64,000 bases of DNA from Lachnospiraceae bacterium (GCA_017521195.1 JAFXGP010000088.1:11203-75202); one strand, 5' to 3'. Positions 316-64,000 are shown, counted from the first letter of the stretch. Notes: a model not told the origin generated them from the sequence alone. Program-made: numbers and translations.

Positions 316-1443
316 TCAAATTCCCATTATTGTTTTACTTCTACATTGCCTAACAATCTCACATATTTTATCAACTTCCGCTAATTCTAAGTCAGCATAT
401 AATGGAAGAGTTAATACTCTCTTACTCACATGCAAGGCAACCGGTGTTTCATAAACATTATAACGCCCTTTAAAACAATCAAATGAATTAGTTAAAGGAT
501 AAAAATATTTTCGCGCCCCAATCCCCTCTTTTGCCAAAGCTTCTTTCACTTCATTTCTACTACTTCCAAATATTTTTTCATCAAAAACTACTGGAAAATA
601 AGCATAATTACTCTTTACTCCTTTTTGAACAGGATTGAGTTGTATACCGTCCACACCTTCCAATTGTTCTCGATATCGTTCTACTACTTTTCTTCTTTTC
701 TCAATCTCATTATCAACATGTCTAAGATTACATAGCCCCATTGCCGCACAAAACTCATTCATCTTAGCATTTGCGCCTACACCATCTATAACTTCTTCAT
801 TTTTAATACCAAAATTTTTTAATTGATACATTGCTTTTCCAAAATCCAAATCATTAAAACAAACTGCACCGCCTTCAATACTATTAAAAACCTTTGTTGC
901 ATGAAAACTAAAACAACTTACATCTCCATATGTACCTATCCCTTTTCCATTATATATTTCACCAAACGTATGCGCCGCATCATAAATAACCTTTAAATTA
1001 TACTTATTTGCTAATCTCTGTATTTCCTCTATATTACAGATATTTCCATATACATGTACCGGAAGAATTGCAACAGTTTTATCTGTAATTAATTCTTCTA
1101 TTTTTGATACATCCATTGTAAATGTTATCGGATCAATATCGCAAAAAACAGGCTCCATTCCATTACGTACAATTGCATGTGTCGTTGATGCAAATGTGAA
1201 TGGTGTTGTAATCACCTCTCCTTTAGCAATCCCCAATGCTTGCAAAGAGAGTTCTATAGCCATATGTCCGTTAGTTAGCAAGTCGATATTACTTACTCCC
1301 AAATATCTTTTCAACTCTGTCTGTAATTGTTGGTGTTTTATTCCCATATTTGTTAGCCATCGACTCTCCCATATATCACGAATTTCATCCACATATTCTT
1401 CAAACTTAGGCATCGATGATTGTGTTACTAATACAGTTGACAT
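316..1443 (-). CDS. nucleotide-sugar aminotransferase, DegT/DnrJ/EryC1/StrS family (PLP-dependent)
   Basis: 375-aa ORF. Motifs TTPFTFASTTHAI, DAAHTFG and SFHATK (Schiff-base Lys). SD GAGG about 9 nt upstream of the ATG. Confidence 0.85.
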   Translation of the reverse strand: MSTVLVTQSSMPKFEEYVDEIRDIWESRWLTNMGIKHQQLQTELKRYLGVSNIDLLTNGHMAIELSLQALGIAKGEVITTPFTFASTTHAIVRNGMEPVFCDIDPITFTMDVSKIEELITDKTVAILPVHVYGNICNIEEIQRLANKYNLKVIYDAAHTFGEIYNGKGIGTYGDVSCFSFHATKVFNSIEGGAVCFNDLDFGKAMYQLKNFGIKNEEVIDGVGANAKMNEFCAAMGLCNLRHVDNEIEKRRKVVERYREQLEGVDGIQLNPVQKGVKSNYAYFPVVFDEKIFGSSRNEVKEALAKEGIGARKYFYPLTNSFDCFKGRYNVYETPVALHVSKRVLTLPLYADLELAEVDKICEIVRQCRSKTIMGI

Positions 1444-4490: not shown

Positions 4491-5801
4491 CTAATCTACA
4501 TATTTTCGTACTTTAACCTCATTTGGCAATTGTAATGTATTCCATATTCTATATGGTTTTGCTTGCTCTACATCAAAATAATATCCATCTTTTGTAATAT
4601 CTACAAAAGATGAGGTTAAATTTATATGTTCCACACTAGACAACACTGTCATTATGTTATATCTTCCTTCACGCAAAGGTACTCTAAATTTAAATTCTAC
4701 AATCAACTTATCTCCCTTGTTTCCTGCAAATTCTTCAATACCTTCATAAGTTGTATTCGTTCCTAACACAGGAATATTTTTTTCATCTCTTATATGATAG
4801 CCAATACATACGTTACACTTCTCACAAAAAATAATATACATCTTTAATATGCATTCCTGGTTGAATTCTGCTTGTATTATTTCTTTTTTTTGTAGGTTTA
4901 AAAGTTTTAGACCTACAACTTTTGCTAGCCCGTTTCCTTCTCTTGAATTTTCTATTCTATCACAATATACTTTATCTTCTATAAACATTTCTGTTGTACT
5001 TTTTAAATCATCAACTGATTTTCCATCTTTTTTCCCCTCCTCATCAACTTTTTCAGTCGCTGCAGACATAACTTTTCTAACTTTTGTTTCATACATATCT
5101 GCAATTTCTTTTACATTACCCTGTGCAACTATCTCTCCATTCTCTAAATAAATAGCTCTTGTACACAAACTCTTCACCGAACCAATATCATGCGAAACTA
5201 AAAAAACTGTTTTTCCCTTTTTAAATAATTCCTGCATCTTTGACATTGATTTTAATTGGAAATATGCATCCCCTACCGCTAATGCTTCATCAACAATCAA
5301 TATATCTGGTTCTATACTGACTGCTATTGAATATGCCAATCGAACATACATTCCACTGGAATATGTCCTGACCGGTTGATAAATATATTCCCCTATATCT
5401 GCAAATTCAACAATTTCCTGTAATTTTTCATCCATCTCCTTACGCGAAAAACCCATAAGCATACCATTAAAATAAATATTTTCAATCCCTGTATATTCAG
5501 GATTAAAACCTGCCCCCAATTCCAATAACGAAGAAATTTTACCATTTACCTCCACACTTCCATTAGTAGGTTGTAATACACCCGTTATTATTTTTAGCAA
5601 CGTGGATTTTCCACTTCCATTTACGCCTATAATACCCACGATTTCGCCTTCTTGAACCTCTAAACTAATATCTTTTAACGCATACTTATCCTTACCATAC
5701 ACTTTACGTCCATTACTAATAATTTCTTTAAAACGTTCTGATGAATCATTATAGATTCTATATATTTTAGATACATTTTTTACCACAACACTCTTTTTCA
5801 T
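4491..5801 (-). CDS. polysaccharide/teichoic-acid ABC exporter ATP-binding protein (Wzt/TagH-like) with C-terminal extension
   Basis: 436 aa. Walker A GVNGSGKST, signature YSSGMYVRLAYS, Walker B ILIVDEALAVGD. About 190 residues follow the NBD (GLKLLNLQKKEI...EFKFRVPLREGRYNIMTVLS), consistent with a Wzt-type glycan-cap-binding beta-sandwich. Confidence 0.85.
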   Translation of the reverse strand: MKKSVVVKNVSKIYRIYNDSSERFKEIISNGRKVYGKDKYALKDISLEVQEGEIVGIIGVNGSGKSTLLKIITGVLQPTNGSVEVNGKISSLLELGAGFNPEYTGIENIYFNGMLMGFSRKEMDEKLQEIVEFADIGEYIYQPVRTYSSGMYVRLAYSIAVSIEPDILIVDEALAVGDAYFQLKSMSKMQELFKKGKTVFLVSHDIGSVKSLCTRAIYLENGEIVAQGNVKEIADMYETKVRKVMSAATEKVDEEGKKDGKSVDDLKSTTEMFIEDKVYCDRIENSREGNGLAKVVGLKLLNLQKKEIIQAEFNQECILKMYIIFCEKCNVCIGYHIRDEKNIPVLGTNTTYEGIEEFAGNKGDKLIVEFKFRVPLREGRYNIMTVLSSVEHINLTSSFVDITKDGYYFDVEQAKPYRIWNTLQLPNEVKVRKYVD

Positions 5802-5833
5802 ACTTAATTTTTAATCCTCTTATCTTCCTATAT

Positions 5834-6619
5834 TTATAATAGATCAGCTAAATGTGGAACCATTTTCTTATATAATTTCATACAAGCAAACCAAAGAGCA
5901 ACAACTACTCCCCAAAAAAACACTGTATACAATATAGAACTCCTGTACTCACCACCATAAACAAGTGCATCCCTAAACCCATTAATAATATAATACATTG
6001 GATTAATCTTAAATATCCATTTGATACTTTCTGGAACAACATCAATATTCCAAACAATTGGAGTTGCCCACATTGCCGCATTAAGAACAATGGAAACTAT
6101 CTGAGGAAAATCTTTCAAAAAAACACAAATTGTAGATAACGCAAATGTAAGTGGAAGAACTAACATTACTAATGCCCCAAAATAATATAATACCCACATT
6201 GTGTATGTTCCTTGAAATACTCCATATCCTATCGTTACTGCAATACATACCAAAAGAAAAAATGAATGGACAAAAAGACATACTAAGGTTTTAGATAAAG
6301 GTATTATATCAATATCAAAAACTATTTTTTTTACTATGTAATTATATTCAAACATACAGTTACTCGAGTTATTTATGATATCCGAAAACATCAACCAAGG
6401 CATAAGCCCAGAAATAAACCATGGCAAAAAAGGGATTCCCTCAACGCTACCATTTTTCAAACCAAATTCAAAAACTAACCAATATATCAAAACCATAACA
6501 ATAGTTTGAATATATGCCCAAACTCCCCCTAACAATGATCCTGCATATCTCTTCTTAAAATCATTTATTGAGAATTCAATACATTTTACTATAAAGTCCT
6601 TATTAATTTTTTTTAACAT
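5834..6619 (-). CDS. ABC-2 type polysaccharide exporter permease (Wzm/TagG-like)
   Basis: 261 aa with about six hydrophobic helices. It lies immediately upstream of the Wzt-like ATPase in the same orientation. Confidence 0.8.
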   Translation of the reverse strand: MLKKINKDFIVKCIEFSINDFKKRYAGSLLGGVWAYIQTIVMVLIYWLVFEFGLKNGSVEGIPFLPWFISGLMPWLMFSDIINNSSNCMFEYNYIVKKIVFDIDIIPLSKTLVCLFVHSFFLLVCIAVTIGYGVFQGTYTMWVLYYFGALVMLVLPLTFALSTICVFLKDFPQIVSIVLNAAMWATPIVWNIDVVPESIKWIFKINPMYYIINGFRDALVYGGEYRSSILYTVFFWGVVVALWFACMKLYKKMVPHLADLL

Positions 6620-51665: not shown

Positions 51666-52190
51666 TTATTCAGAAACATCCTGTGCAGGTACACCTACTA
51701 ATATTGCACCATCTTTCAGGCAGCTTTTGGTTACTACTGCATTAGCTCCTACCTGAATGTTATCTCCTAAGGTAATATCTCCAAAGACTTTTGCACCGGG
51801 GCCTAAATAAGCATTATCACCAATCTTTGGCGCTTTTCCGTGATTTGCTCCCACGCAAACTCCCGGGTGCAGTTTTGCATGTTTCCCGATTCGGGAACCT
51901 GCATTAATAATAACGGAACCCAAATGCGCCATTTCAAATCCCTCTTCCAAGACATTTAGAGGAATAGAGATTCCATATCTGGTCTGAATTCTAAGTAATC
52001 GAAATAAATACCATATTCTGGTAATCTTTCCGGTATTCGCTGCATACTCTGCTTTTCGCAAAAAATAAGCATGTTGAAACAATACCTGTTGTTCCGTCAT
52101 CAAAATAGGTAAATGAAAATACCATTTTTTCTTATATTTTTTGCCTTCCACAGTTAAATATCTTTTTAAGTCATCTTTGTTTTGTATCAT
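51666..52190 (-). CDS. hexapeptide-repeat (LbH) O-acetyltransferase, serine-acetyltransferase-like
   Basis: 174 aa. A helical N-terminal domain is followed by repeats IGKHAKLHPGVCVGAN and IGDNAYLGPGAKVFGDITLGDNIQVGANAVV. 4-nt overlap with the upstream GT4. Confidence 0.8.
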   Translation of the reverse strand: MIQNKDDLKRYLTVEGKKYKKKWYFHLPILMTEQQVLFQHAYFLRKAEYAANTGKITRIWYLFRLLRIQTRYGISIPLNVLEEGFEMAHLGSVIINAGSRIGKHAKLHPGVCVGANHGKAPKIGDNAYLGPGAKVFGDITLGDNIQVGANAVVTKSCLKDGAILVGVPAQDVSE

Positions 52191-54368: not shown

Positions 54369-54402
54369 ACAAAGCCTGTTGCAAATTTACAACAGGCTTT
54401 GT
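54369..54402 (-). terminator. rho-independent terminator candidate inside the locus, downstream of the acyltransferase gene
   Basis: Perfect 13-bp stem ACAAAGCCTGTTG (54369..54381) / CAACAGGCTTTGT (54390..54402) with an 8-nt loop. On the minus-strand transcript it is followed by UUUAUGG. It lies 18 nt after the stop at 54420. Confidence 0.5.
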
Positions 54403-54419
54403 GAAACAATCTTTAACTT

Positions 54420-55481
54420 CTATTTTAAAAATATGCTTTTACATTTTATCATCACTTTTTGCGCCAATCCGGAAAGTACAGTCAATAAAATTCCTGCCAC
54501 GTTCACCATTAACAGATATAACATACACAATTTAAATCTATCTCTTATACTTTCGGGATATCCAAAATATTGTGGGAAAATACATACGCGAAAAACTTCA
54601 TGAATCAAATAGACTCCTAATGTGGCCTTGGACCAATATTTTATAATACCCGGCACTTTTATCTTCTCGTTTGGTAAGAATCCAATTGCAACACATATGC
54701 ATAAGATGAATGCCATAGGAAAATCATTGGCAGAATATCCATTTTTTAACGAGTGAATGATCACAAGTAAAAAGCCGGTCACACTCATTCCTTTCCACAG
54801 CAGTATATTTTTTGCGTTCTTTTTAAGATAATCATTCAACCTGGCAGCAATGACTCCCAGTCCCATGCCGGCAATTCCCCGCATTAGGGCACCATTTATA
54901 AAGAATCCCTCTATATCTACGATATGGAAATCCAAAACGGCTGCCTTTCTATAAAACCACGAATAAAATACCATTATACTTAATGGAATCAAAAAATTAA
55001 CTGTTACTTTTTCGTAGTTTTTCAACAGAAAATACAAAAAGAAAGTACAAATGAACAATGCAGATATATACCATGATGTACCATTTATATAATTCCAACC
55101 CCTATTTAAGCCTATACAATGTAAACCTATTATCTCCCAAAAACTATCATACAAACGTGCAACTCTGCTTGCCGGGTCATTGGCTGTTTTTAATATAAAC
55201 GTAATAATAAAACATATAATATAAATGGGATAAATATTAAAATACTTATCTTTTATGCATGCTACGTTTGATTCATATTTATTACTTTTACACTGCCGAT
55301 ATAACAAAAATCCTGATACAATGAAAAAGAATTCTACCGAAATATACCATCCATTTGTCATACCCATATCTTTAGCAATATTATATACATTACCAAAATG
55401 AAATGCTGCAATCATATTGGTGAATATAATTCGCCAAATATAAATCATATTATCGTTACGTTCTTTCATTATAATCTCCAA
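54420..55481 (-). CDS. acyltransferase family 3 membrane protein
   Basis: 353 aa, about 10-11 TM helices, N-terminal [15 protein letters not shown] motif. 13-nt overlap with the upstream dehydrogenase gene. Confidence 0.7.
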
Positions 55482-56785
55482 TAAGAGAATCCCTCTTCTG
55501 TATAATCTTTTCTATCTAATAATCCCTTAATATCTGCCAATACTTTTACTTTGTTATCAGGATTAAAGAATCCACAGATATCTTCTTTGGAAAGTTTTAA
55601 GAATTCGTCATGAGCAACTGCAATAATTACCGCATCCATGTTTTTAACATCTGCCATAGTACCGAATTCAATTCCGTATAATTTCAATGCTTCTTCTGCA
55701 TCTGCTGTTTCATCTACTACTACCGGAGTAATACCATATTCACCAAGTTCTTTGTAGATATCGATAATCTTAGTATTTCTGGTATCCGGACAATTTTCTT
55801 TAAAAGTAAAACCAAGAATCGCTACTTTCGCTTTGTTTACAGGAAGCTCAGCTTTGATAATATTCTTAACTACACTTTCTGCCACATATTTACCCATATC
55901 ATCATTGATACGACGACCGGATAAAATAATCTGAGAATGATAACCAAGCTGTTCTGCTTTATAAGTTAAATAATAAGGGTCAACACCAATACAATGTCCG
56001 CCTACAAGTCCGGGGAAGAATTTTAAGAAATTCCATTTGGTTCCCGCTGCTTCCAATACTGCTTTTGTATCAATACCCATTTTATTGAAGATAATGGATA
56101 ATTCATTCATGAACGCAATGTTAATGTCACGCTGACTGTTTTCAATTACTTTTGCAGCTTCTGCTACTTTGATGGATTCCGCACGATGAACACCTGCTTC
56201 TACAACAAGTTCATATACTTTAGCAACTTCATCCAAGGTTTCTTCATCCATACCGGATACAATCTTTGTGATAGTTTCTAATCTATGAACTTTATCGCCC
56301 GGATTAATTCTTTCCGGAGAGTAACCGATTTTGAAATCTACACCACATTTTAAACCGGATTCTTTTTCCAGAATCGGAACGCAAGTTTCTTCTGTAACTC
56401 CCGGATAAACGGTAGATTCAAATACCACGATAGAACCTTTTGTTAAATTCTGTCCAAGCAATCTGCTGGCACCTTCTACCGGTGTCAAATCCGGTGTATG
56501 GTCATCATTTACAGGTGTTGGAACTGCTACAATGTGGAATTTAGCCTCTTTTAATTTTGCAGGATCTGCTGTAAATTCTACACTTGTAGTTTTAATCACA
56601 TCATCCCCAACTTCTCTGGTTGGGTCGATTCCGGATTTGTATAAATTAATTTTTGCTTCGTTTAAGTCAAATCCTACAACCTTTACTTTTCTTGCAAACG
56701 CAACTGCGATAGGCATACCTACATATCCAAGACCTACTAAAGATATTTTCTCTTCTCCTGCTACGATTTTTTCATATAAACTCAT
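55469..56785 (-). CDS. UDP-N-acetylhexosamine 6-dehydrogenase (TviB/WbpO/CapL-type nucleotide-sugar dehydrogenase)
   Basis: 438 aa. NAD fold [18 protein letters not shown] and catalytic Cys context [15 protein letters not shown]. Confidence 0.8.
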
Positions 56786-57873
56786 ATTATTTTCTCCATT
56801 TCCTCTATATAAGATTCCACCACAATCCTGCGGTCAAATTCCTGTTCTATTTTTTTGCGGGCACACTTTCCCATTTCTTTTCTCTCTTCATAAGAAAGGT
56901 TCAGAAAACGTTTCACAGCTTCGTAAAACGCCTGCTTATCACGTGGTACAAAACCGATTCCCGTGATACCATCATCAAAACCCTCTCTGCATCCGGGAAT
57001 ATCCGAAGCCAAGACCGGCCTTCCGGTGGCTGCTGATTCCAAAACCACGTTGGACATTCCTTCATGATAGCTTGGCATAACTGCTGCCGAAGCTTTTGTA
57101 TAGAAAGGATGGATGATTTTTTGGTAACCGATAAATTCCACAACACCAGTCTGCTGAAGCTTTTCCACAACCTCTTTATAATCCTCTTCATAGCTGCCTA
57201 TCAGCTGAAAAATCACTTCCGGGAATTCCTGTTTGATTTCTTTCGCCGCATACAGCAGTTCATCAATTCCCTTTTCTTTCATGATTCGCCCTACAAATAC
57301 TAATCTTACAGGCTCATCTTTAGCGGGGTACTCTTCAAACACATGCCTGTCCAGATTCACCCCGGAACCGGGAACCAATCGGACTTTTTTGCCTCTAATT
57401 CCAAAGTTGTCAAAAATGTCTTTATTCTTGGCATTTTGAAAGAAAACACAGCTTGCTTTTTTTAAGGCAATTTTATATAAAAATACCACCAGTTTACGAA
57501 GCAATCCATCTTCTTCAAACGCGGAACCCAGGCCCGTAATATTAACTATATATGGAATCCTCTTTAATCTGCAGCAAAGACTGCCGTAGATGTTGGGTTT
57601 AATCGTATACGTTAGCACCACATTTGGTTTTACTTCCCTTATCAATTTAAGATATTGTATCATCAATTTGCCATCTTTGACAGGATTCATACCTCTTCGT
57701 TCCAAAAATGTGTGGTGTACGATGCATCCTTCGTCCGCAATTTCCGGTACGTCATCTTCGTCCGGCAGACTTACATGAACTTCATACTCTTTCAACAATC
57801 TTAAAAGCAATTCATTTCGAAAATCATATAGTCCGCTGGCATTATTTGCAAGAATTAAAACTCTTTTTTTCAT
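56782..57873 (-). CDS. GT4-type glycosyltransferase (PglA/WbuB-like position)
   Basis: 363 aa. Motifs [20 protein letters not shown] and [33 protein letters not shown]. Confidence 0.8.
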
Positions 57874-58844
57874 GCTAATTCATCCTGTTTCTTAATCACA
57901 ACACTGTCATACATCATCATAACAACGCCTTCTTCATAGTCACCAATGCAGGAATCATTTGCTTCCCCTGAAATATTCTTTTCAATTAATTTTATAAAAT
58001 CTACACCTGCACCATATGCATGAAGATATGCTCCGCCAAAACGAGGATTAATTTCAGAAAGATAATACTGTCCATTTACATAAAAGAAATCCATATCATT
58101 AGGACCATATAATTCTAATACTCCCGCAACTTGTTTGATTAACTCAAAAAGCTTTTCATCTTTAAAAGATATTGTCTTATTTGCGCCCCCTATGGTAGTT
58201 GAAATTTTTCTCTTCGAAAATGCAGATACCACTTCTCGGCTTTCTGTGTCTACATATACATCTGCATCCAAATCCATGCCGCCCATGAATTCTTGAACAA
58301 TCAGAGATTCATCTTCCTTCATTGCAACAACAAGTTCATCCATACTCTCAACTTTTCTTGCTCCAACACTTCCGCTTCCTGTTCGTGGTTTCACAAAAAC
58401 AGGGAAAGAAAGTTCTTTTTGAGCTATCGCATTTTGAGCCTCTTCTAAAGTCCCGTAAGTTTGCACCGTAGGAATATTATGTTTTTTAAGGTGCTTAAAC
58501 AATTCGTACTTGTCAAAACAGAGTCGCGCTGTCTCATAAGCAGGAACCAGCACCTTAATTCCGAATTGTTCAAACACTTCCCTATTCTTAGATAACACTT
58601 CTATCTCCGGATCAATAAAGGTTGCGATTGCCTGTATTTTTTCCTTTTTGCAAATATCTAAAAGTGTGTCAATATAGTTGGGATCTATAATTTTAGGAAC
58701 CAGATATTGTTCATCTGCAAAATATAATGCCGGTGCATATGGACTGTTATCAGTCGCGATAATCTTTCCTTCCGTTCCCATTGTCTGACGAAAATCTTTA
58801 AGTAGTTCACCTCTTCGGCCTACACTGCACATCAATAAATTCAT
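57870..58844 (-). CDS. ATP-grasp family ligase
   Basis: 324 aa. Motifs FPVFVKPRTGSGSVGARKV, LIVQEFMGG and YLSEINPRFGGAY. ATGA-type overlap with the downstream GT4. Confidence 0.8.
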   Translation of the reverse strand: MNLLMCSVGRRGELLKDFRQTMGTEGKIIATDNSPYAPALYFADEQYLVPKIIDPNYIDTLLDICKKEKIQAIATFIDPEIEVLSKNREVFEQFGIKVLVPAYETARLCFDKYELFKHLKKHNIPTVQTYGTLEEAQNAIAQKELSFPVFVKPRTGSGSVGARKVESMDELVVAMKEDESLIVQEFMGGMDLDADVYVDTESREVVSAFSKRKISTTIGGANKTISFKDEKLFELIKQVAGVLELYGPNDMDFFYVNGQYYLSEINPRFGGAYLHAYGAGVDFIKLIEKNISGEANDSCIGDYEEGVVMMMYDSVVIKKQDELA

Positions 58845-58875
58845 TTTCTATTCTCCTGTCCATAATATTCTATAT

Positions 58876-60036
58876 TTAAGAATGGATATCTAAATAATCT
58901 TTTACTGAAATTTGACTTCTTACTTTTTCAACGCCCTGACTACTTTTTACGTATACTTCCGGAAGATATCGTATAAACATGCCTCCAAAAGTCATAGAAT
59001 AGGCCCCTACACGATGATAAACTATTTCATCTCCGACCTGAAGTTCCTTTTCATTTTCTAAAACCATAATGCGGTCATGATCCATACATGTATAACCACA
59101 AATTATTTGTCGTGGTTGTTTTTTATCATCCTGTGCATTGCTTGAAAACATATATCTCTTTTTGGCCCACAGCGGATCGATATGAATACGACTACCATCT
59201 GTAGTAACAATTCTTGCATGCGTCGTATCTTTTACATCCAATACAGATGTGTGCAACTCAACCGTGGATCCAACAATTGCTGAACCGGGTTCTACAATCA
59301 GTTTCGTTTCTTCCGGATTAATTACTTCGCTCAATTCATTTTTTATTACAGTTACATAATCTTTCGGTGTAGGTTTTCCTTCCACTCCCCCGAAATAGCC
59401 ACCACCCATATCAATAAATGACAGCTCTAAATTATATTTACGGATTAAATTCGCTGCATAACATGCAATTTCCCTATAAACATTTAAACTTCGGGTAATA
59501 CTGTTACAATGCAAATGTAAACCTATTTTTACCACGCCATAAATATCTCTTATGGTATGAAGTGCTTTTTCAAACTCACCATTTTCTACCGCAAATCCGA
59601 ATCGGAAACCATCTTCCTCATATCCAATGTCCTCATGACTAAAAACAGAAGAATCTACATTTACTCTGATACCTATATTTTCACAAGTATCTCCCTTGTA
59701 CTTTGCAAGATATTCCAAATCTTTCGCAGAATCCAGATTGATATAAGCTTTGCCTTCCACTGCTGATTTAAATTGTTCTTCCCCTTTAATAGGACCGTTA
59801 TATACAATCTCGCTATCTGCATACCCGCACATCCTAGCTAATTGGTACTCTTCATCAGAAACCACTTCTGCCAATGCATCCTTCTCTTTTAAATACTTTA
59901 AAAGCCATGGTAGTGAATTTGTTTTTACAGAATACGCCAACTTAGAATTCGGCCACAACTCTTTTAATGCATTTTGAAATGCCATAACATTAGCATTCAA
60001 TTCGTTTTCTAAAATCAGAAAATACGGAGTTTTCAT
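58876..60036 (-). CDS. PLP-dependent decarboxylase, fold type III (Orn/DAP/Arg decarboxylase family)
   Basis: 386 aa. PLP-Lys context LAYSVKTNS, phosphate-binding DMGGGYFGG, and C-terminal ICGYTCMDHD. Confidence 0.75.
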   Translation of the reverse strand: MKTPYFLILENELNANVMAFQNALKELWPNSKLAYSVKTNSLPWLLKYLKEKDALAEVVSDEEYQLARMCGYADSEIVYNGPIKGEEQFKSAVEGKAYINLDSAKDLEYLAKYKGDTCENIGIRVNVDSSVFSHEDIGYEEDGFRFGFAVENGEFEKALHTIRDIYGVVKIGLHLHCNSITRSLNVYREIACYAANLIRKYNLELSFIDMGGGYFGGVEGKPTPKDYVTVIKNELSEVINPEETKLIVEPGSAIVGSTVELHTSVLDVKDTTHARIVTTDGSRIHIDPLWAKKRYMFSSNAQDDKKQPRQIICGYTCMDHDRIMVLENEKELQVGDEIVYHRVGAYSMTFGGMFIRYLPEVYVKSSQGVEKVRSQISVKDYLDIHS

Positions 60037-60650
60037 CCATCCACCTCTTCCGTTCCCATAAAATCTTCCATTGTTGCAGAGTTTGCAGAACTAATGCCAT
60101 CCCGTTTCAAAACGGTAAATACTGTCTGGAAAATAATCTTCCAATCACCTATAAATGTGATGTTATCTACATACTTAACATCCCATTCAAACTTTTCTTC
60201 CCAGCTAATGGAATTTCTTCCGTTTACCTGCGCCAATCCGGTAAATCCGGGACGTACTTCATGTCTTCTTGCTTGCCGTTTATTATATCTTGGAAGATAT
60301 TCTACTAACAAGGGTCTGGGACCTACAATACTCATATCTCCTTTGAAAATATTCCATAACTCCGGCAATTCATCCAAGCTGGTAGCACGGAGCATTTCAC
60401 CAAATTTTGTAAGACGAACTTCATCCGGAAGCAAGTTCCCATTCTCATCTTTTTCATCCGTCATGGTACGGAACTTACACATGGTAAATATCTTCCCGTC
60501 TTTTCCCGGGCGTTTCTGATGAAAGATAACCGGACTGCCAAGCTTGATTCTTACTAAGATGGCTACAGTAAGCAATACCGGCGAGAGCACTATTAAAGCT
60601 ACTCCGGATAATATAATATCCAATAATCTTTTTATATAATTCTTGTACAT
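60033..60650 (-). CDS. small monotopic phosphoglycosyl transferase (PglC/WbaP C-terminal-type 'bacterial sugar transferase'), initiating enzyme
   Basis: 205 aa. Motifs KRLLDIILSGVALIVLSPVLL, SPVIFHQKRPGKDGKIFTMCKFRTM and DELPELWNIFKGDMSIVGPRP. Confidence 0.85.
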   Translation of the reverse strand: MYKNYIKRLLDIILSGVALIVLSPVLLTVAILVRIKLGSPVIFHQKRPGKDGKIFTMCKFRTMTDEKDENGNLLPDEVRLTKFGEMLRATSLDELPELWNIFKGDMSIVGPRPLLVEYLPRYNKRQARRHEVRPGFTGLAQVNGRNSISWEEKFEWDVKYVDNITFIGDWKIIFQTVFTVLKRDGISSANSATMEDFMGTEEVDG

Positions 60651-60673
60651 GCTCTTTCCTCCCTACCACCGTA

Positions 60674-61807
60674 TTATCGGCCGAAACAACCACGCACAAT
60701 ACTTATAATATTCGCCATATCTTCTTCTGTGTTTTTAATATCACTTGGTAAGCAAAGTCCACGGTTAAAGATATCTTCACCAACACTGATATCACCTTCT
60801 GCCGCAGAGATAAAATCATAACCTTCGAATACGGGCTGTAAATGCATTGGTTTCCAGATTGGTCTGGATTCCATGTTTTCTGCTTCCAGGGCATCCATAA
60901 TCTGATTTGGAGTTACTTCGCATCCTTCGGATAAGGTCATACAGGATAACCAACAGTTGGAATCTCCATCCGGATTCATAGGATTCATAGTAATTTCCTC
61001 TATATCTGCAAAAGCAGCTTTATACTGCTCATATATTTTCTTCTTAATTGCCTTATGTTCTTCCAAATGAAGCATCTGGCCACGTCCGATACCTGCCACA
61101 ACGTTGGACATACGGTAGTTGTAGCCAATGTTGGAATGTTGATAATGTCTTGCCGCATCTCTTGCCTGCGTGGACAAAAATCTGGCACGAGCTATTGCTT
61201 CTTCATCATCAGAAACTAACATTCCACCTCCGGAAGTAGTAATAATCTTGTTTCCATTGAAAGAAAAGATTCCGAATTTACCAAAAGTTCCCGTCTGCTT
61301 CCCTTTGTATGTAGCACTCATGGATTCTGCTGCATCTTCAATAAACGGCACATTATGTTCTCCGCAGATTGCCATTAATTCATCAATTTTTGCCGGTGTA
61401 CCATAGAGATGTACACAAACCACTGCCTTAGGATTTGGATACTTTTCAAAAGCTTTCTTCAAAGCTTTGGGATCCATATTCCAAGTGTCCGGTTCGCTGT
61501 CGATAAATACCGGAATCGCTTTTTCATAGCAAATCGGATTACAGGTAGCAGAAAATGTCAAATCGGATACAAAGACAATATCCCCTTCTTTTACATCTGC
61601 TAATTTTAATGCCAGATGAATCGCTGCAGTTCCTGCGCTTAAAGCTGCTGCCGCCTTGCTTCCCGTATATGCTGCCACTTCTTTTTCAAATTCATTTACA
61701 TTTGGACCAAGTGGTGCTACCCAGTTGGTATCAAATGCTTCATGCACAAACTCAAGTTCCTCTCCATGCATGGTCGGACATGAAAGATAGATTCTTTTCT
61801 TTTCCAT
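60674..61807 (-). CDS. UDP-4-keto-6-deoxy-HexNAc aminotransferase (DegT/PglE-like)
   Basis: 377 aa. Motifs LSAGTAAIHLAL, DAAESM and FSFNGNKIITTSGGG (PLP Lys). Confidence 0.85.
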   Translation of the reverse strand: MEKKRIYLSCPTMHGEELEFVHEAFDTNWVAPLGPNVNEFEKEVAAYTGSKAAAALSAGTAAIHLALKLADVKEGDIVFVSDLTFSATCNPICYEKAIPVFIDSEPDTWNMDPKALKKAFEKYPNPKAVVCVHLYGTPAKIDELMAICGEHNVPFIEDAAESMSATYKGKQTGTFGKFGIFSFNGNKIITTSGGGMLVSDDEEAIARARFLSTQARDAARHYQHSNIGYNYRMSNVVAGIGRGQMLHLEEHKAIKKKIYEQYKAAFADIEEITMNPMNPDGDSNCWLSCMTLSEGCEVTPNQIMDALEAENMESRPIWKPMHLQPVFEGYDFISAAEGDISVGEDIFNRGLCLPSDIKNTEEDMANIISIVRGCFGR

Positions 61808-61819
61808 AGCTGTCTCCCT

Positions 61820-63703
61820 TTATTTTACATCGTCCTTAATCTGATATGTGGGAACAATCTCCTTAATCAGATGACGGATATCTGCACTTTCATTTTTTGA
61901 CTCTTCTTTCAGGTTTTTCAATTGACGGAAGAATGTCATTTCATCGATTTCAATAGGCTTACCTATATGAATCATCTTATTGGCTGTGTCTTGAAGTCCT
62001 TCTTCATCCATCAAAAGTTCTTCGTATAGTTTTTCTCCGGGACGAAGTCCTGTGAATTCAATCTGAATATCTTCATCCACTTTGTAACCGGATAAACGAA
62101 TTAAATTCTTAGCCAAATCCAGAATTTTTACCGGTTCGCCCATATCCAGAACAAAGATTTCTCCACCTTTGGCATAGGCGCCTGCCTGCAATACCAAAGA
62201 TACCGCTTCTGGTATGGTCATAAAGTAACGGATGATATCCGGATGAGTTACGGTCACCGGACCTCCCTGAGCAATCTGTTTCTTAAATAACGGAATTACA
62301 CTACCGTTACTTCCCAATACGTTACCAAAACGAACTGCTACAAATTCTGTATCGTAATGACGATTAAAAGTCTGGATAATCATTTCACAGATACGTTTGC
62401 TGGCACCCATGATATTGGTAGGGTTTACCGCTTTATCCGTACTAATCATTACAAATTTTTCCGTTCCATAATAGGCTGCCGCCTGGGCTGTCTTCCATGT
62501 ACCGAATACATTATTTTTCACCGCTTCGTTAGGGCTTGTCTCCATCAAAGGCACATGTTTATGAGCTGCTGCATGATACACAATCTGCGGTCTGTAGGTT
62601 TCAAAAATTGTATTCATACGATTGGTATTTCTTACCGATGCAATCAACACCAATAAATCTAAATCCGGGTGTTTATATAACAATTCCTGCTGTACATCAT
62701 AGGCACTGTTTTCATAAATATCTACCAAAATCAGTTTTTTGGGTTTATGCTGGGCAATCTGGCGGCACAACTCACTTCCGATAGAACCACCTCCACCGGT
62801 AACCATAACTACTTTGCCACTTACATAGCCTAAAATAGAATCCAAATCTACGCGGATAGGTTCTCTTCCCAGCAAGTCTTCTACTTCTACGTCTCTTAAC
62901 TGACTTACATTAACTTCTCCGTTTACCAGCTGATACATCCCCGGCAAGGATTTCAGTTTACATTCTGTTTCTTTACATATATCCAGAATCTCACTGATTA
63001 CTTTCTTGGAAGCAGAAGGAATAGCAATAAAAATTTCATCTACTCCATATACATCCACGCATTCCAATATTTTTTCTCTGCCACCTACAACGCGGATGCC
63101 CTGAATATAGCTACCCCATTTTTTGGAATCATCATCAATAATACAAGCAATACTCATAGTAGAGAAATTACTGTTTACAATCTCTTTAATAATAGAATTT
63201 CCCGCTTCGCCGGCACCGATAATCATAACACGAATGGCATTTTTCTTATTCTGTGCTTTATGCTTGAAACTACGCATAAAACGATAAGAAAAACGGCTGG
63301 CGAAAACCAAGGAAATTAGCAAAAAGCAATAGGTAAAATAATAACTGTTCGGAACCGCTCTCTGTTCTACTTTCACTGCATAGAGACCTACACCATTCAC
63401 CGCGGAAGCCATAAAGCAGGCTACAATAATATTTTGCAACTCACTTTCTCCGGCAAAAGCCCACAAACTGTGATATAGACGGAAAATATAAAATATAATA
63501 ATTGTAAAAATAATATTAAAAGGCAAAAAGCGAATGATAGTATCCAAAAAGTAATCCGGAATCATATCAAATTCAAACTCAAAACGCATGGAAATTGCTA
63601 AAAAGCTGGCTGCCAATACGCTTGCCACATCGTAAATTACAAAACTGGCTCTACGAAAAATCAGTTGGTAATTAAATACTTCTTTTTTCATTTTTCTCTC
63701 CAT
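61820..63703 (-). CDS. membrane-bound UDP-HexNAc 4,6-dehydratase (PglF/CapD/WbpM-like)
   Basis: 627 aa with four N-terminal TM helices. Motifs IIGAGEAG, VMVTGGGGSIGSEL and MISTDKAVNP (catalytic TDK). Confidence 0.85.
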   Translation of the reverse strand: MERKMKKEVFNYQLIFRRASFVIYDVASVLAASFLAISMRFEFEFDMIPDYFLDTIIRFLPFNIIFTIIIFYIFRLYHSLWAFAGESELQNIIVACFMASAVNGVGLYAVKVEQRAVPNSYYFTYCFLLISLVFASRFSYRFMRSFKHKAQNKKNAIRVMIIGAGEAGNSIIKEIVNSNFSTMSIACIIDDDSKKWGSYIQGIRVVGGREKILECVDVYGVDEIFIAIPSASKKVISEILDICKETECKLKSLPGMYQLVNGEVNVSQLRDVEVEDLLGREPIRVDLDSILGYVSGKVVMVTGGGGSIGSELCRQIAQHKPKKLILVDIYENSAYDVQQELLYKHPDLDLLVLIASVRNTNRMNTIFETYRPQIVYHAAAHKHVPLMETSPNEAVKNNVFGTWKTAQAAAYYGTEKFVMISTDKAVNPTNIMGASKRICEMIIQTFNRHYDTEFVAVRFGNVLGSNGSVIPLFKKQIAQGGPVTVTHPDIIRYFMTIPEAVSLVLQAGAYAKGGEIFVLDMGEPVKILDLAKNLIRLSGYKVDEDIQIEFTGLRPGEKLYEELLMDEEGLQDTANKMIHIGKPIEIDEMTFFRQLKNLKEESKNESADIRHLIKEIVPTYQIKDDVK

Positions 63704-63724: not shown

Positions 63725-64000
63725 TTACTCTGCTTTTTCCTTTTTAAATAAAAGCGGAATAATTACGATAAACATTGCAAATCCAAAAGGATTACCATAG
63801 TGGAATATCCATTCCACCATACTTGCTGCTGCAAATGCTAAAATTACAGCTATCGGAAGAAGCTCAAAATAATCTTCTTCCTTTTCATATCTGTTTTTAC
63901 AGCTCCTCCAGATACATACAAAGAAACTTAACACACCAAACATAATAAACATAATTCCTGTAATCAGACCATGATCATGAATTACCTGCAAAAATGTATT
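63725..64000 (-). CDS. C-terminal part of an O-antigen ligase/polymerase-like membrane protein (partial, continues beyond window end)
   Basis: The reading frame is open to position 64000 (NTFLQVIHDHGLITGIMFIMFG...). The 'M' at 63991 in the track is a TTG. The motif (H)NTFLQV..(E/D)xG is typical of the Wzy_C/WaaL C-terminal region. Confidence 0.5.
   Translation of the reverse strand, partial: NTFLQVIHDHGLITGIMFIMFGVLSFFVCIWRSCKNRYEKEEDYFELLPIAVILAFAAASMVEWIFHYGNPFGFAMFIVIIPLLFKKEKAE

What the first reader, a model, noticed from the sequence alone, without database searches (positions are those of the whole stretch)
57870..63703. PglF-PglE-PglC-type cassette carrying an ATP-grasp ligase and a fold-III PLP decarboxylase instead of a PglD-type N-acetyltransferase
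The genes at 61820..63703 (membrane 4,6-dehydratase), 60674..61807 (aminotransferase) and 60033..60650 (small phosphoglycosyl transferase) match the first steps of di-N-acetylbacillosamine-type pathways. No PglD-like acetyltransferase follows. Instead, overlapping genes encode an Orn/DAP-type decarboxylase (58876..60036) and an ATP-grasp ligase (57870..58844).
There are two precedents for this enzyme pair. In butirosin biosynthesis, BtrJ (ATP-grasp) and BtrK (PLP decarboxylase) build a gamma-aminobutyryl unit on a carrier protein. In Campylobacter capsule synthesis, an ATP-grasp amide ligase works with a PLP decarboxylase to make glucuronamide substituents.
There are two hypotheses:
- The 4-amino group of the 2,4-diamino-2,4,6-trideoxyhexose is acylated with an amino-acid-derived (decarboxylated) acyl group.
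- The HexNAcA carboxylate is amidated with a decarboxylation-derived amine.
Either would be an uncommon substituent. A CysE-like acetyltransferase lies 6 kb downstream, so plain N-acetylation cannot be excluded.
Basis: partly seen in the sequence, partly recalled or inferred. Interest (0 to 1): 0.6.

Follow-up and report, generated by a model that had tools for sequence, protein, structure and literature searches.

The report
Amino-sugar ligase plus decarboxylase tailoring module
In a gut Lachnospiraceae sugar-coat operon, the enzyme that normally acetylates the first sugar's amino group is replaced by an ATP-dependent ligase plus a vitamin-B6 decarboxylase; this widespread gene pair, sometimes fused into one gene, probably attaches a short amine-ended acyl chain to the sugar, a step not described for sugars in the papers searched.

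Summary
All five genes lie on the minus strand in one tightly packed transcription unit.

Hypothesis 2 (amidation of HexNAcA) is not.

- **Ligase position.** Homologues of the ATP-grasp ligase sit directly after a PglC-like transferase in 66 of 71 informative genome loci.
- **Decarboxylase family.** It is a separate family, far from LysA and closest to FigC/FslC, which decarboxylates an amide-linked amino acid.
- **Pairing.** In every locus inspected, the decarboxylase lies beside or is fused to an ATP-grasp ligase.
- **No link to uronic acid.** The pair usually occurs without uronic-acid genes.
- **Second pathway.** The pair also fills the N-acetyltransferase slot of legionaminic/pseudaminic-acid-type pathways.
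- **Natural fusions.** The decarboxylase is found fused to the ligase (in both orders), the PglC-type transferase, a CMP-sugar synthetase and a GNAT.

Best reading: ligate, then decarboxylate, on the nucleotide-linked 4-amino sugar, giving an omega-aminoacyl group (4-aminobutanoyl or beta-alanyl). The acid and the order of steps are inferred, not shown.

The ligase part is a known theme (B. cereus Pyl, Neisseria PglB2). The decarboxylase partner is the new variant. This scan had noted the same pair on other DNA, as first-reader notes only.

The parts
61820..63703 (-). PglF/CapD-type membrane UDP-HexNAc 4,6-dehydratase (627 aa)
   Evidence: Pfam Polysacc_synt_2 413 bits and CoA_binding_3. Three N-terminal hydrophobic segments.
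60674..61807 (-). PglE/LegC-like DegT aminotransferase (377 aa). It makes the nucleotide-linked 4-amino-4,6-dideoxy-HexNAc.
   Evidence: Pfam DegT 325 bits. NCBIfam LegC family 378 bits, below its cut-off of 420. Homologues lie upstream of the ligase in 58 of 71 loci.
60033..60650 (-). Small PglC-type phosphoglycosyl transferase (205 aa). Its stop codon overlaps the decarboxylase start (ATGA).
   Evidence: Pfam Bac_transf 218 bits. One hydrophobic segment. Present upstream of ligase homologues in 66 of 71 loci. A natural transferase::decarboxylase fusion exists: P0260, 52% and 60% identical to this gene and to the decarboxylase.
58876..60036 (-). Fold-III PLP decarboxylase (386 aa) of a sugar-pathway family related to FigC/FslC. 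Predicted to remove the alpha-carboxyl of an amino acid amide-linked to the sugar.
   Evidence: Catalytic residues K38, R124, H176, G211-213, E249, C317, D321 and Y346 are invariant in the family. A family profile scores FigC 221 bits, LysA at most 172, BtrK 135. AF2 model pLDDT 92; Foldseek top hit 7kh2. LysA model 142 bits against a cut-off of 298.
57870..58844 (-). ATP-grasp carboxylate-amine ligase (324 aa) in the slot where PglD-type acetyltransferases sit. Predicted to acylate the 4-amino group.
   Evidence: NF009406 458 bits. PDB 2pn1 at 5e-75; no function in its PDB name. Family-invariant K112, K152, D250, N266, R268 and near-invariant E264, which I read from memory as the usual ATP/Mg site. 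Sits after PglC in 66 of 71 loci. Fused to the decarboxylase in 17 protein clusters, with one more in the reverse order.
56782..57873 (-). GT4 glycosyltransferase, translationally coupled to the ligase. Probably adds the second sugar.
   Evidence: Pfam Glycos_transf_1 111 bits. Follows the ligase in most related loci.
55469..56785 (-). TviB-type UDP-GlcNAc 6-dehydrogenase. Same operon, but not part of the ligase/decarboxylase module.
   Evidence: NCBIfam TviB 487 bits and NDP-sugar dehydrogenase 379 bits. Absent from 10 of 11 decarboxylase-bearing loci with long flanks.
54369..54402 (-). Strong hairpin with a T-run after the acyltransferase-3 gene. The first terminator-like site downstream of the cassette.
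   Evidence: 15-pair stem, 6 GC pairs, followed by TTTAT.

Best explanation
The ligase and the decarboxylase form one two-enzyme module that replaces the PglD/LegH-type N-acetyltransferase.

1. The dehydratase and the aminotransferase make the nucleotide-linked 4-amino-4,6-dideoxy-HexNAc. (Inferred from family membership.)
2. The ATP-grasp ligase activates a carboxyl group of an acid with ATP and joins it to the sugar's 4-amino group. (Inferred from position, from the Pyl and PglB2 precedents, and from context.)
3. The acid is most likely an abundant dicarboxylic amino acid joined through its side-chain carboxyl (L-Glu gamma or L-Asp beta), which leaves a free alpha-amino-acid head. (Inference.)
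4. The PLP decarboxylase removes that alpha-carboxyl. The sugar then carries a 4-aminobutanoyl or beta-alanyl group ending in a primary amine. (Inference.)
5. The PglC-type transferase loads the finished sugar onto the lipid carrier as the first sugar of the polymer, and the coupled GT4 extends it.

Both tailoring enzymes are soluble. Because the same pair works in lipid-free nonulosonic-acid pathways, they most likely act on the nucleotide sugar.
For: **The ligase belongs to the 4-amino-sugar step.**
- 66 of 71 homologue loci have a PglC-like gene within 4.7 kb upstream, and 58 of 71 have a PglE-like gene.
- A ligase 59% identical to this one, with a decarboxylase, sits in a Bacteroidales locus ordered DegT - NeuC - decarboxylase - ligase - NeuB - CMP-transferase.

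**The decarboxylase is tied to ATP-grasp ligases.**
- In all 10 of 401 genomes of the order that carry a family member (11 places), it lies next to an ATP-grasp.
- The decarboxylase tree mirrors the ligase tree.

**Natural fusions, all inside amino-sugar cassettes.**
- Decarboxylase::ligase in 17 clusters. Examples: Selenomonas sp. ND2010, in dehydratase - DegT - nucleotidyltransferase - [fusion] - NeuB - NeuC - CMP-transferase; and P0241, in PglF - PglE - PglC - [fusion] - GT4.
- Ligase::decarboxylase in the reverse order.
- PglC::decarboxylase.
- CMP-sugar synthetase::decarboxylase.
- GNAT::decarboxylase.

**The decarboxylase is not LysA.**
- It scores 142 bits against a cut-off of 298.
- At the aligned positions of three LysA residues that I recall as DAP-contacting, the genome's own LysA candidate has R, R and E; this gene has S252, D287 and M318.
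- The genome's own LysA candidate scores 285 bits.

**Its nearest characterised relative works on an amide conjugate.**
- FigC/FslC scores 221 bits with the family profile, about 50 bits above LysA.

**Near-identical ligases occur with and without a decarboxylase.**
- Examples: L005/L007 and L048/L058.
- Three decarboxylase-less genomes show no family member at all.
- This fits a ligase that uses a common metabolite, with the decarboxylase as an optional trimming step.

**Published precedents for the ligase step.** Pyl (PMC11626204, PMC8987622) and PglB2 (PMC11130364).
Against: - There is no biochemistry for any member, so the acid is unknown.
- The only characterised relative of the ligase by context, Pyl, uses 2-oxoglutarate. 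A PLP decarboxylase cannot act on that without prior amination.
- I could not obtain the Pyl or PglB2 sequences, so homology to them is not shown.
- In other cassettes the inserted genes (a class I/II aminotransferase plus a 2-hydroxyacid dehydrogenase) look like suppliers of the acid before ligation. The decarboxylase could be one too.
- FigC's citrate-contacting residues (R387, R290) are not conserved here, so likeness to FigC does not define the substrate.
- L048 and L058 come from one MAG, so a decarboxylase could serve both loci in trans.
- The completeness of the three decarboxylase-less genomes is not given.
- A hexapeptide acetyltransferase 5.7 kb downstream, and a NeuD-family enzyme 59 kb away, could still acetylate some of the amino sugar.
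Confidence: 0.55

Rival explanations
1. Decarboxylate first. The decarboxylase acts on a free amino acid that keeps a second carboxyl (a DAP-like diamino-dicarboxylate, Glu or Asp). This makes an acid (Lys, GABA or beta-alanine) that the ligase then joins to the 4-amino group. The end product is of the same class, but the order and the substrate differ.
For: Other cassettes of this ligase family carry genes that look like acid suppliers: an aspartate-aminotransferase-like enzyme plus a 2-hydroxyacid dehydrogenase. In Campylobacter, decarboxylation comes before ligation (PMC11800397). Fusions and adjacency fit either order.
Against: From my own knowledge (not checked here), LysA is the only characterised fold-III decarboxylase whose product keeps a carboxyl; at the aligned positions of its DAP-contacting residues as I recall them, the own LysA candidate's R, R and E are replaced here. 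The closest characterised relative acts on an amide conjugate. Fusion to a CMP-sugar synthetase or to the membrane transferase is odd for an enzyme of free amino-acid metabolism. Near-identical ligases work in genomes with no family member, so their substrate does not depend on the decarboxylase.
Confidence: 0.2
2. Uronamide route. The ligase activates the GalNAcA carboxylate and joins it to an amine or amino acid (for example the side-chain amine of Orn or Lys). The decarboxylase acts before or after, giving a putrescine- or cadaverine-type amide.
For: TviB and TviC genes lie in the same operon. An N-acyl-ornithine conjugate would resemble the FigC substrate most closely. Campylobacter Cj1438C is an ATP-dependent uronate amidoligase.
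Against: 10 of 11 decarboxylase-bearing loci with long flanks lack TviB, while 25 of 47 decarboxylase-less loci have it. The pair, including a ligase 59% identical to this one, works in nonulosonic-acid pathways without uronic acids. The ligase follows PglC, not TviB/TviC, across loci. Two AsnB-type amidotransferases in the locus already cover uronate amidation.
Confidence: 0.05
3. Carrier-protein route, as in butirosin. The ligase loads Glu onto a small carrier protein, the decarboxylase makes GABA-S-carrier, and a separate acyltransferase moves it to the sugar or polymer.
For: The enzyme pair matches BtrJ/BtrK in type. An unassigned ORF of 80-85 aa lies between the decarboxylase and ligase genes in Faecalimonas.
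Against: The cassette here has no ORF between the two genes: the gap is 31 nt. The Faecalimonas ORF matches no family, PP-binding included. BtrK is a weaker match (135 bits) than FigC (221). The nonulosonic-acid versions contain no carrier gene or transferase in the slot.
Confidence: 0.05
4. The decarboxylase is a housekeeping or spare LysA that happens to lie in the operon, and the 4-amino sugar stays free or is acetylated in trans.
For: Some sources name homologues 'diaminopimelate decarboxylase'. LysA is the best NCBIfam hit by a small margin.
Against: The score is under half the LysA cut-off. The genome has a better LysA candidate at 285 bits. The branch to that LysA is very long. At the aligned positions of three LysA residues recalled as DAP-contacting, the own LysA candidate's R, R and E are replaced. 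Linkage and fusion to ATP-grasp ligases is strict.
Confidence: 0.02

Closest known systems
Bacillus cereus ATCC 14579 UDP-yelosamine pathway (Pdeg, Pat, Pyl; Hwang et al. 2014, J Biol Chem, cited in PMC11626204 and PMC8987622)
   Same: A 4,6-dehydratase and an aminotransferase, then an ATP-grasp enzyme that ligates an acid to the UDP-4-amino sugar, beside a small phosphoglycosyl transferase and with no PglD.
   Different: Pyl ligates 2-oxoglutarate and no decarboxylase is reported. Here a PLP decarboxylase is coupled to the ligase, which calls for an amino-acid head group.
Neisseria PglB2 (phosphoglycosyl transferase fused to an ATP-grasp domain; glyceramido-acetamido-trideoxyhexose, PMC11130364)
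   Same: An ATP-grasp replaces the acetyltransferase at the 4-amino group of the priming sugar. Fusion to the transferase has parallels here: PglC::decarboxylase and decarboxylase::ligase.
   Different: The acyl group there is glyceroyl and there is no decarboxylase. Here the genes are separate.
FigA/FigC (FslA/FslC) of rhizoferrin and SbnH of staphyloferrin B (PMC7857480; PDB 7kh2, 6knk)
   Same: The ligate-then-decarboxylate logic: an amino acid is first joined by an amide bond, then a fold-III PLP enzyme removes its alpha-carboxyl. FigC is the closest solved and characterised relative of the decarboxylase.
   Different: The ligase there is an NIS synthetase and the partner is citrate. FigC's citrate-binding R387 and R290 are not conserved here. 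About 26-27% identity. The NCBIfam FslC score is 137 bits against a cut-off of 500.
BtrJ/BtrK/BtrI of butirosin biosynthesis
   Same: An ATP-grasp ligase plus a fold-III decarboxylase turn glutamate into a 4-aminobutyryl unit.
   Different: That system works on a carrier protein. No carrier gene is in this cassette, and BtrK is a weaker match than FigC or LysA.
Campylobacter jejuni HS:2 Cj1436/Cj1437/Cj1438C/Cj1435 (PMC11800397)
   Same: A decarboxylase and an ATP-dependent amide ligase decorate a capsule sugar.
   Different: The decarboxylase acts on free L-serine phosphate before ligation. The ligase amidates a uronic-acid carboxylate in the growing chain. Context here points to the 4-amino group of a nucleotide sugar.
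PglD / LegH / PseH N-acetyltransferases
   Same: The same step and the same slot in the pathway (N-acylation of the 4-amino group).
   Different: Those enzymes transfer acetate from acetyl-CoA. This module uses ATP and an unidentified acid, then trims it.

Membership tests
PglF-PglE-PglD-PglC (diNAcBac-type initiation module) | Membrane 4,6-dehydratase of the Polysacc_synt_2 family | tested here: met
   413 bits; three N-terminal hydrophobic segments.
PglF-PglE-PglD-PglC (diNAcBac-type initiation module) | DegT-type 4-aminotransferase and a small monotopic Bac_transf transferase | tested here: met
   325 and 218 bits.
PglF-PglE-PglD-PglC (diNAcBac-type initiation module) | PglD/NeuD-family N-acetyltransferase in the module | tested here: not met
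   The best hit in this part of the contig is 44 bits, against a cut-off of 161. The only member over the cut-off is 59 kb away, about 2.5 kb from another DegT.
Pyl-type ATP-grasp (UDP-4-amino-sugar:acid ligase) | ATP-grasp fold with conserved ATP/Mg site | tested here: met
   Pfam and NCBIfam hits. Family-invariant K112, K152, D250, N266, R268 and near-invariant E264; their assignment to the ATP/Mg site is from memory.
Pyl-type ATP-grasp (UDP-4-amino-sugar:acid ligase) | Encoded beside the 4-aminotransferase and a small phosphoglycosyl transferase | tested here: met
   In this window, and in 66 of 71 (transferase) and 58 of 71 (aminotransferase) related loci.
Pyl-type ATP-grasp (UDP-4-amino-sugar:acid ligase) | Sequence orthology to B. 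cereus Pyl; ligation of 2-oxoglutarate | not testable with these tools
   PMC4271244 is not held.
LysA (diaminopimelate decarboxylase, TIGR01048) | Score over the curated cut-off | tested here: not met
   142 bits against 297.9. The genome's own candidate on contig C63 scores 285 bits.
LysA (diaminopimelate decarboxylase, TIGR01048) | Residues that hold the distal end of DAP (Arg of EPGR, Arg/Tyr of the RPxxY helix, Glu after the catalytic Cys). This list is from memory of LysA structures; here it was compared only with the own-genome LysA candidate and with LysA chains aligned. | tested here: not met
   S252, D287, W290 and M318 at the aligned positions. In the family these positions are S/V/M/N, D/N, variable and M/L.
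FslC/FigC (N-citrylornithine decarboxylase, NF041039) | Score over the curated cut-off | tested here: not met
   137 bits against 500.
FslC/FigC (N-citrylornithine decarboxylase, NF041039) | Catalytic set K63, R151, H198, G237-239, E287, C354 (PMC7857480) | tested here: met
   K38, R124, H176, G211-213, E249 and C317 are invariant.
FslC/FigC (N-citrylornithine decarboxylase, NF041039) | Citrate-contacting R387 and R290; a partner NIS synthetase | tested here: not met
   F350 and S252 at the aligned positions. The neighbour is an ATP-grasp, not an NIS synthetase.
BtrJ/BtrK/BtrI | A small carrier protein encoded with the pair | tested here: not met
   The 31-nt gap holds no ORF. The extra ORF in Faecalimonas has no Pfam match.

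The most novel reading that the evidence does not exclude
The decarboxylase family would be the first PLP-dependent decarboxylase found to act on a nucleotide-sugar-bound amino acid.

- It would make N-(4-aminobutanoyl)- or N-(beta-alanyl)-substituted bacillosamine-type sugars.
- In the nonulosonic-acid versions it would make the matching legionaminic/pseudaminic-acid derivatives.
- These sugars would carry a flexible primary amine. Next to GalNAcA this would give gut Firmicutes and Bacteroidales zwitterionic or cationic surface polymers of an unreported type.
Probability: 0.45. Interest if true: 0.7.

Novelty: new variant of a known kind. Interest (0 to 1): 0.6.

Why it matters
The first sugar of a capsule or glycan, and the terminal nonulosonic acids, are major antigenic and immune-modulating features of gut bacteria. 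Free amines on such polymers are what make Bacteroides-type zwitterionic polysaccharides active (my own knowledge).

- **Scale.** The module has 241 representative clusters at E <= 1e-30 (a count that may include other FigC-like proteins). Its members recur in Lachnospiraceae, Oscillospiraceae, Selenomonas and Bacteroidales.
- **Prediction.** It predicts new monosaccharides that mass spectrometry could detect as a 44 Da difference between strains with and without the decarboxylase.
- **Annotation.** At least one homologue is currently named 'FslC', and others 'diaminopimelate decarboxylase' or 'carbamoyl-phosphate synthase'. These names look wrong.
- **Test organisms.** Cultured strains carry the module (Faecalimonas canis, Selenomonas sp. 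ND2010), and Butyrivibrio strains serve as decarboxylase-less comparators.

Tried and rejected
- **Complex prediction.** Complex prediction on decarboxylase plus ligase, with family alignments, gave no verdict (score 0.00). It is not used either way.
- **Pyl paper.** The primary paper (PMC4271244) is not held. I found no way to fetch the Pyl or PglB2 sequences, so no direct alignment or tree with them was made.
- **Literature.** No paper in the held library describes the pair. The searches covered an ATP-grasp plus decarboxylase on bacillosamine or trideoxyhexose; aminobutanoyl- or beta-alanyl-substituted nonulosonic acids; and 'diaminopimelate decarboxylase' together with legionaminic, pseudaminic or bacillosamine terms.
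- **Possible carrier protein.** The 80-85 aa ORF between the two genes in Faecalimonas has no Pfam match even at E = 5.
- **LysA.** Considered as a housekeeping LysA and rejected.
- **Uronamide route.** Considered and rejected.
- **The acid.** I did not try to assign it from ligase residues. The closest structure, 2pn1, has no function in its PDB name.

Full report
**What is there**

- 61820-63703: a 627-aa PglF/CapD-type dehydratase. Polysacc_synt_2 413 bits and CoA_binding_3; three N-terminal hydrophobic segments.
- 60674-61807: a DegT aminotransferase. Its best NCBIfam match is the LegC family at 378 bits, below the cut-off of 420.
- 60033-60650: a 205-aa Bac_transf phosphoglycosyl transferase.
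- 58876-60036: a fold-III PLP decarboxylase.
- 57870-58844: an ATP-grasp ligase that passes NCBIfam NF009406 (458 bits, cut-off 271). That family carries only the placeholder name 'carbamoyl phosphate synthase-like protein'.

The transferase stop overlaps the decarboxylase start (ATGA). The ligase stop overlaps the start of the next GT4 in the same way. The decarboxylase and the ligase are separated by 31 nt with an AGGAGA site. No terminator-like site lies on the minus strand before the strong hairpin at 54402-54369, after the acyltransferase-3 gene. The closest public relative of the stretch is a Lachnospiraceae MAG from water-buffalo rectum, with a ligase 94% identical.

**Is a PglD-type enzyme really missing?**

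Locally, yes. The hexapeptide protein at 51666-52190 scores 44 bits on the NeuD/PglD model, whose cut-off is 161. One true family member (171 bits) lies on the same contig, 2.2 kb outside the window and about 59 kb further down the minus strand. It lies about 2.5 kb from a second DegT aminotransferase (window 316-1443), at the end of a Wzm/Wzt sub-locus, so it probably serves another sugar. Action in trans cannot be excluded.

**The ligase**

The family is large: 6300 proteins at E <= 0.001.

I fetched 80 genome loci encoding homologues and labelled their ORFs by BLAST against the window's proteins.
- Of 71 loci with at least 3 kb upstream, 66 have a PglC-like gene within 4.7 kb upstream of the ligase, and 58 have a PglE-like gene.
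- The usual order is PglF - PglE - PglC - [insert] - ligase - GT4.
- The insert varies: nothing; the fold-III decarboxylase (17 of 71); a fold-II PLP enzyme of the D-cysteine-desulfhydrase/CuyA group, with or without a GNAT; a GNAT alone; or an aspartate-aminotransferase-like enzyme plus a 2-hydroxyacid dehydrogenase.
- The decarboxylase never co-occurs with the separate PLP-lyase or GNAT inserts (0 of 17 against 25 of 54).

A maximum-likelihood tree (quick search) splits the ligases into two starred clades. The clade holding this window's ligase has only 'decarboxylase' or 'none' contexts.

Published work gives two precedents for an ATP-grasp in this slot.
- Neisseria PglB2 is an ATP-grasp fused to the transferase and gives the glyceramido sugar (PMC11130364).

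I could not get either sequence, so membership in 'the Pyl family' rests on context only. The closest solved structure is 2pn1, which has no function in its PDB name (5e-75).

**The decarboxylase is not LysA**
- It scores 142 bits on the LysA model, whose cut-off is 298.
- The genome has a better LysA candidate on another contig, at 285 bits.
- In a tree of 30 family members plus that candidate, the family is separated from it by a path of about 5 changes per column.
- The catalytic set of fold-III decarboxylases is invariant across the family: K38 (Schiff base), R124, H174/H176, G211-213, E249, C317, D321, Y346.
- At the aligned positions of the residues that, as I recall LysA structures, hold the far end of DAP, the genome's own LysA candidate has R (of ELGR), R (of the RPxxY-type helix) and E after the catalytic Cys. 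This gene has S252, D287 and M318.

**What it resembles**

A profile of 24 family members scores the N-citrylornithine decarboxylase FigC/FslC (7kh2) at 221 bits, LysA structures at 172 or less, and BtrK at 135. An AlphaFold model (pLDDT 92) has 7kh2 as its top Foldseek match.

By my reading of the HMMER alignment, many family-invariant residues that differ from the own LysA candidate are shared with FigC: T39, E57, V59, N80, K84, R145-F146, R182, Y227, M318, F354-I355 and P359.

The FigC paper places FigC in a clade with SbnH, AcsE, MccE and BtrK (a clade that also contains the DAP decarboxylases and D-ODC); all five of these remove the alpha-carboxyl of an amino acid already joined to something else (PMC7857480).

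FigC's citrate contacts (R387, R290) are not kept here (F350, S252). Instead R283, K292 and R322 are conserved, in the two elements that paper calls specificity determinants: the 3-10 helix and the Cys loop. That these residues bind a nucleotide-sugar diphosphate is my guess only.

NCBI names a 64%-identical Faecalimonas canis protein 'FslC'. Its context is a capsule locus ordered LytR - Wzz - CpsB - CpsD - PglF - PglE - PglC - decarboxylase - small ORF - ligase - GT4 - EpsG, with no siderophore genes. The name is probably wrong.

**Linkage of the two enzymes**

In a sample of 401 genomes of the same order, only 10 carry a family member at E <= 1e-60. In all 11 places it lies next to an ATP-grasp. 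The decarboxylase tree mirrors the ligase tree.

Natural fusions are frequent.
- 17 protein clusters are decarboxylase::ligase, and one is ligase::decarboxylase in the reverse order.
- One cluster is PglC::decarboxylase (P0260). It is 52% and 60% identical to this window's two proteins, in DegT - [fusion] - ligase - GT4.
- One is GNAT::decarboxylase, in DegT - PglC - [fusion] - ligase - GT4.
- Several are CMP-sugar synthetase::decarboxylase.
- P0241 is a decarboxylase::ligase fusion in exactly this cassette's order: PglF - PglE - PglC - [fusion] - GT4 - sugar dehydrogenase.

**Which group is modified?**

Three lines of evidence speak against the uronic-acid idea.
1. Of 11 decarboxylase-bearing loci with at least 8 kb downstream, only 1 has a TviB-like gene. 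Of 47 decarboxylase-less loci, 25 do.
2. The pair occupies the N-acetyltransferase slot of nonulosonic-acid pathways.
   - A Bacteroidales locus reads DegT - NeuC - decarboxylase - ligase (59% identical to this one) - NeuB - CMP-transferase.
   - Selenomonas sp. ND2010 and a Hadza gut contig read dehydratase - DegT - nucleotidyltransferase - [decarboxylase::ligase] - NeuB - NeuC - CMP-transferase.
   - The intermediate these pathways share with the bacillosamine route is the nucleotide-linked 4-amino-4,6-dideoxy-HexNAc (established pathway knowledge). They contain neither a uronic acid nor a lipid carrier.
3. This locus has two AsnB-type amidotransferases that can account for uronamides.

The module therefore most likely acts on the 4-amino group of the soluble nucleotide sugar.

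**Order of steps and the acid (inference)**

A PLP decarboxylase needs a free alpha-amino acid. If it acts after ligation, the amino acid must be joined through a side-chain carboxyl. L-Glu (gamma) or L-Asp (beta) are the obvious abundant candidates. The products would be 4-aminobutanoyl or beta-alanyl amides.

Points in favour of ligation first:
- The kinship with conjugate decarboxylases.
- The fusions to a CMP-sugar synthetase and to the membrane transferase.
- The existence of gamma-linked glutamyl groups on a clostridial legionaminic acid.
- Near-identical ligases with and without a decarboxylase (L005/L007; L048/L058). Three decarboxylase-less genomes show no family member, and two more have only the nonulosonic-acid paralogue.

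Points against certainty:
- Pyl uses a keto acid.
- Other inserts look like acid suppliers.
- L048 and L058 come from one MAG.
- The completeness of those three genomes is not told.

I put about 0.8 on 'the pair tailors the N4 acyl group', and about 0.55 on the full ligate-then-decarboxylate reading.

**Comparison with earlier notes of this scan**

Several follow-up reports on other genomes filed 'ATP-grasp in PglD's slot' as an uncharacterised member of the Pyl/PglB2 theme, and I agree. Two first-reader notes on other DNA had seen the decarboxylase-ligase pair, without follow-up. The new content here is the decarboxylase family, its fusions, and its second home in nonulosonic-acid pathways.

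**Not done**
- Complex prediction gave no verdict.
- No paper in the held library describes the pair.

Noticed in passing
outside the window: G000:C83:88603-89724 (= L102:13335-14540, minus strand), 13.4 kb beyond the window's right end: A paralogue of the cassette decarboxylase (40% identical, E 6e-90). It overlaps by 14 nt the end of a CMP-nonulosonate-synthetase-type cytidylyltransferase. Its neighbours are a GT52/polysialyltransferase-like gene, NeuB, an ABC exporter and a 397-aa ATP-grasp_4 ligase. The genome therefore carries the ligase-decarboxylase idea twice, in two sugar pathways.
   Followed up: partly
L103:8148-10076 (genus g4 of the same family; 6 of 7 genomes sampled): Cytidylyltransferase and decarboxylase are fused in one 642-aa ORF, between an ATP-grasp_4 ligase and NeuB. 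In this variant the decarboxylation may happen at the nonulosonic-acid or CMP-sugar stage.
   Followed up: partly
L031:9021-10004, L029:9083-9997, L034:5420-6871, L026:9484-10029, L027:2591-4746: Other genes occupy the slot between PglC and the ligase in related loci: a fold-II PLP enzyme of the D-cysteine desulfhydrase / CuyA / ACC-deaminase group; a GNAT weakly like PseH and sometimes fused to that PLP enzyme; or an aspartate-aminotransferase-like enzyme plus a 2-hydroxyacid dehydrogenase. This is a swappable tailoring slot whose chemistry is unknown.
   Followed up: partly
P0153 (Faecalimonas canis), context L087: NCBI names this 64%-identical homologue 'rhizoferrin biosynthesis N-citrylornithine decarboxylase FslC', yet it sits in a capsule locus with no siderophore genes. 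Probably an over-annotation. Other sources call homologues 'diaminopimelate decarboxylase', and call the ligase 'carbamoyl-phosphate synthase large subunit'.
   Followed up: partly
L087:10203-10445 and L088:10188-10445: An ORF of 80-85 aa with no Pfam match lies between the decarboxylase and ligase genes in Faecalimonas. It is absent from this window.
   Followed up: partly
outside the window: G000:C83:8405-9010 (L105:1465-2121), with window 316-1443 and 4491-6619: A NeuD/PglD-family acetyltransferase over its cut-off lies about 2.5 kb from a second DegT aminotransferase, next to a Wzm/Wzt ABC exporter pair. This looks like a second, separate amino-sugar pathway at the far end of this very long glycan region.
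   Followed up: partly
L118:13755-16166: In the locus with the PglC-[decarboxylase::ligase] fusion, an AMP-binding (adenylating) enzyme is followed by a second fold-III decarboxylase. This may be another ligate-and-decarboxylate pair.
   Followed up: no
L119:9127-11139: Downstream of the PglC::decarboxylase fusion lies a 670-aa protein that combines nucleotidyltransferase domains with PEP mutase. This hints at a phosphonate decoration in the same glycan.
   Followed up: no
window 63725-64000, continuing into L102:1-2178 (minus strand): The gene just upstream of the dehydratase encodes a large protein (more than 800 aa when joined across the window end) with no Pfam match in the 726 residues tested.
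   Followed up: no
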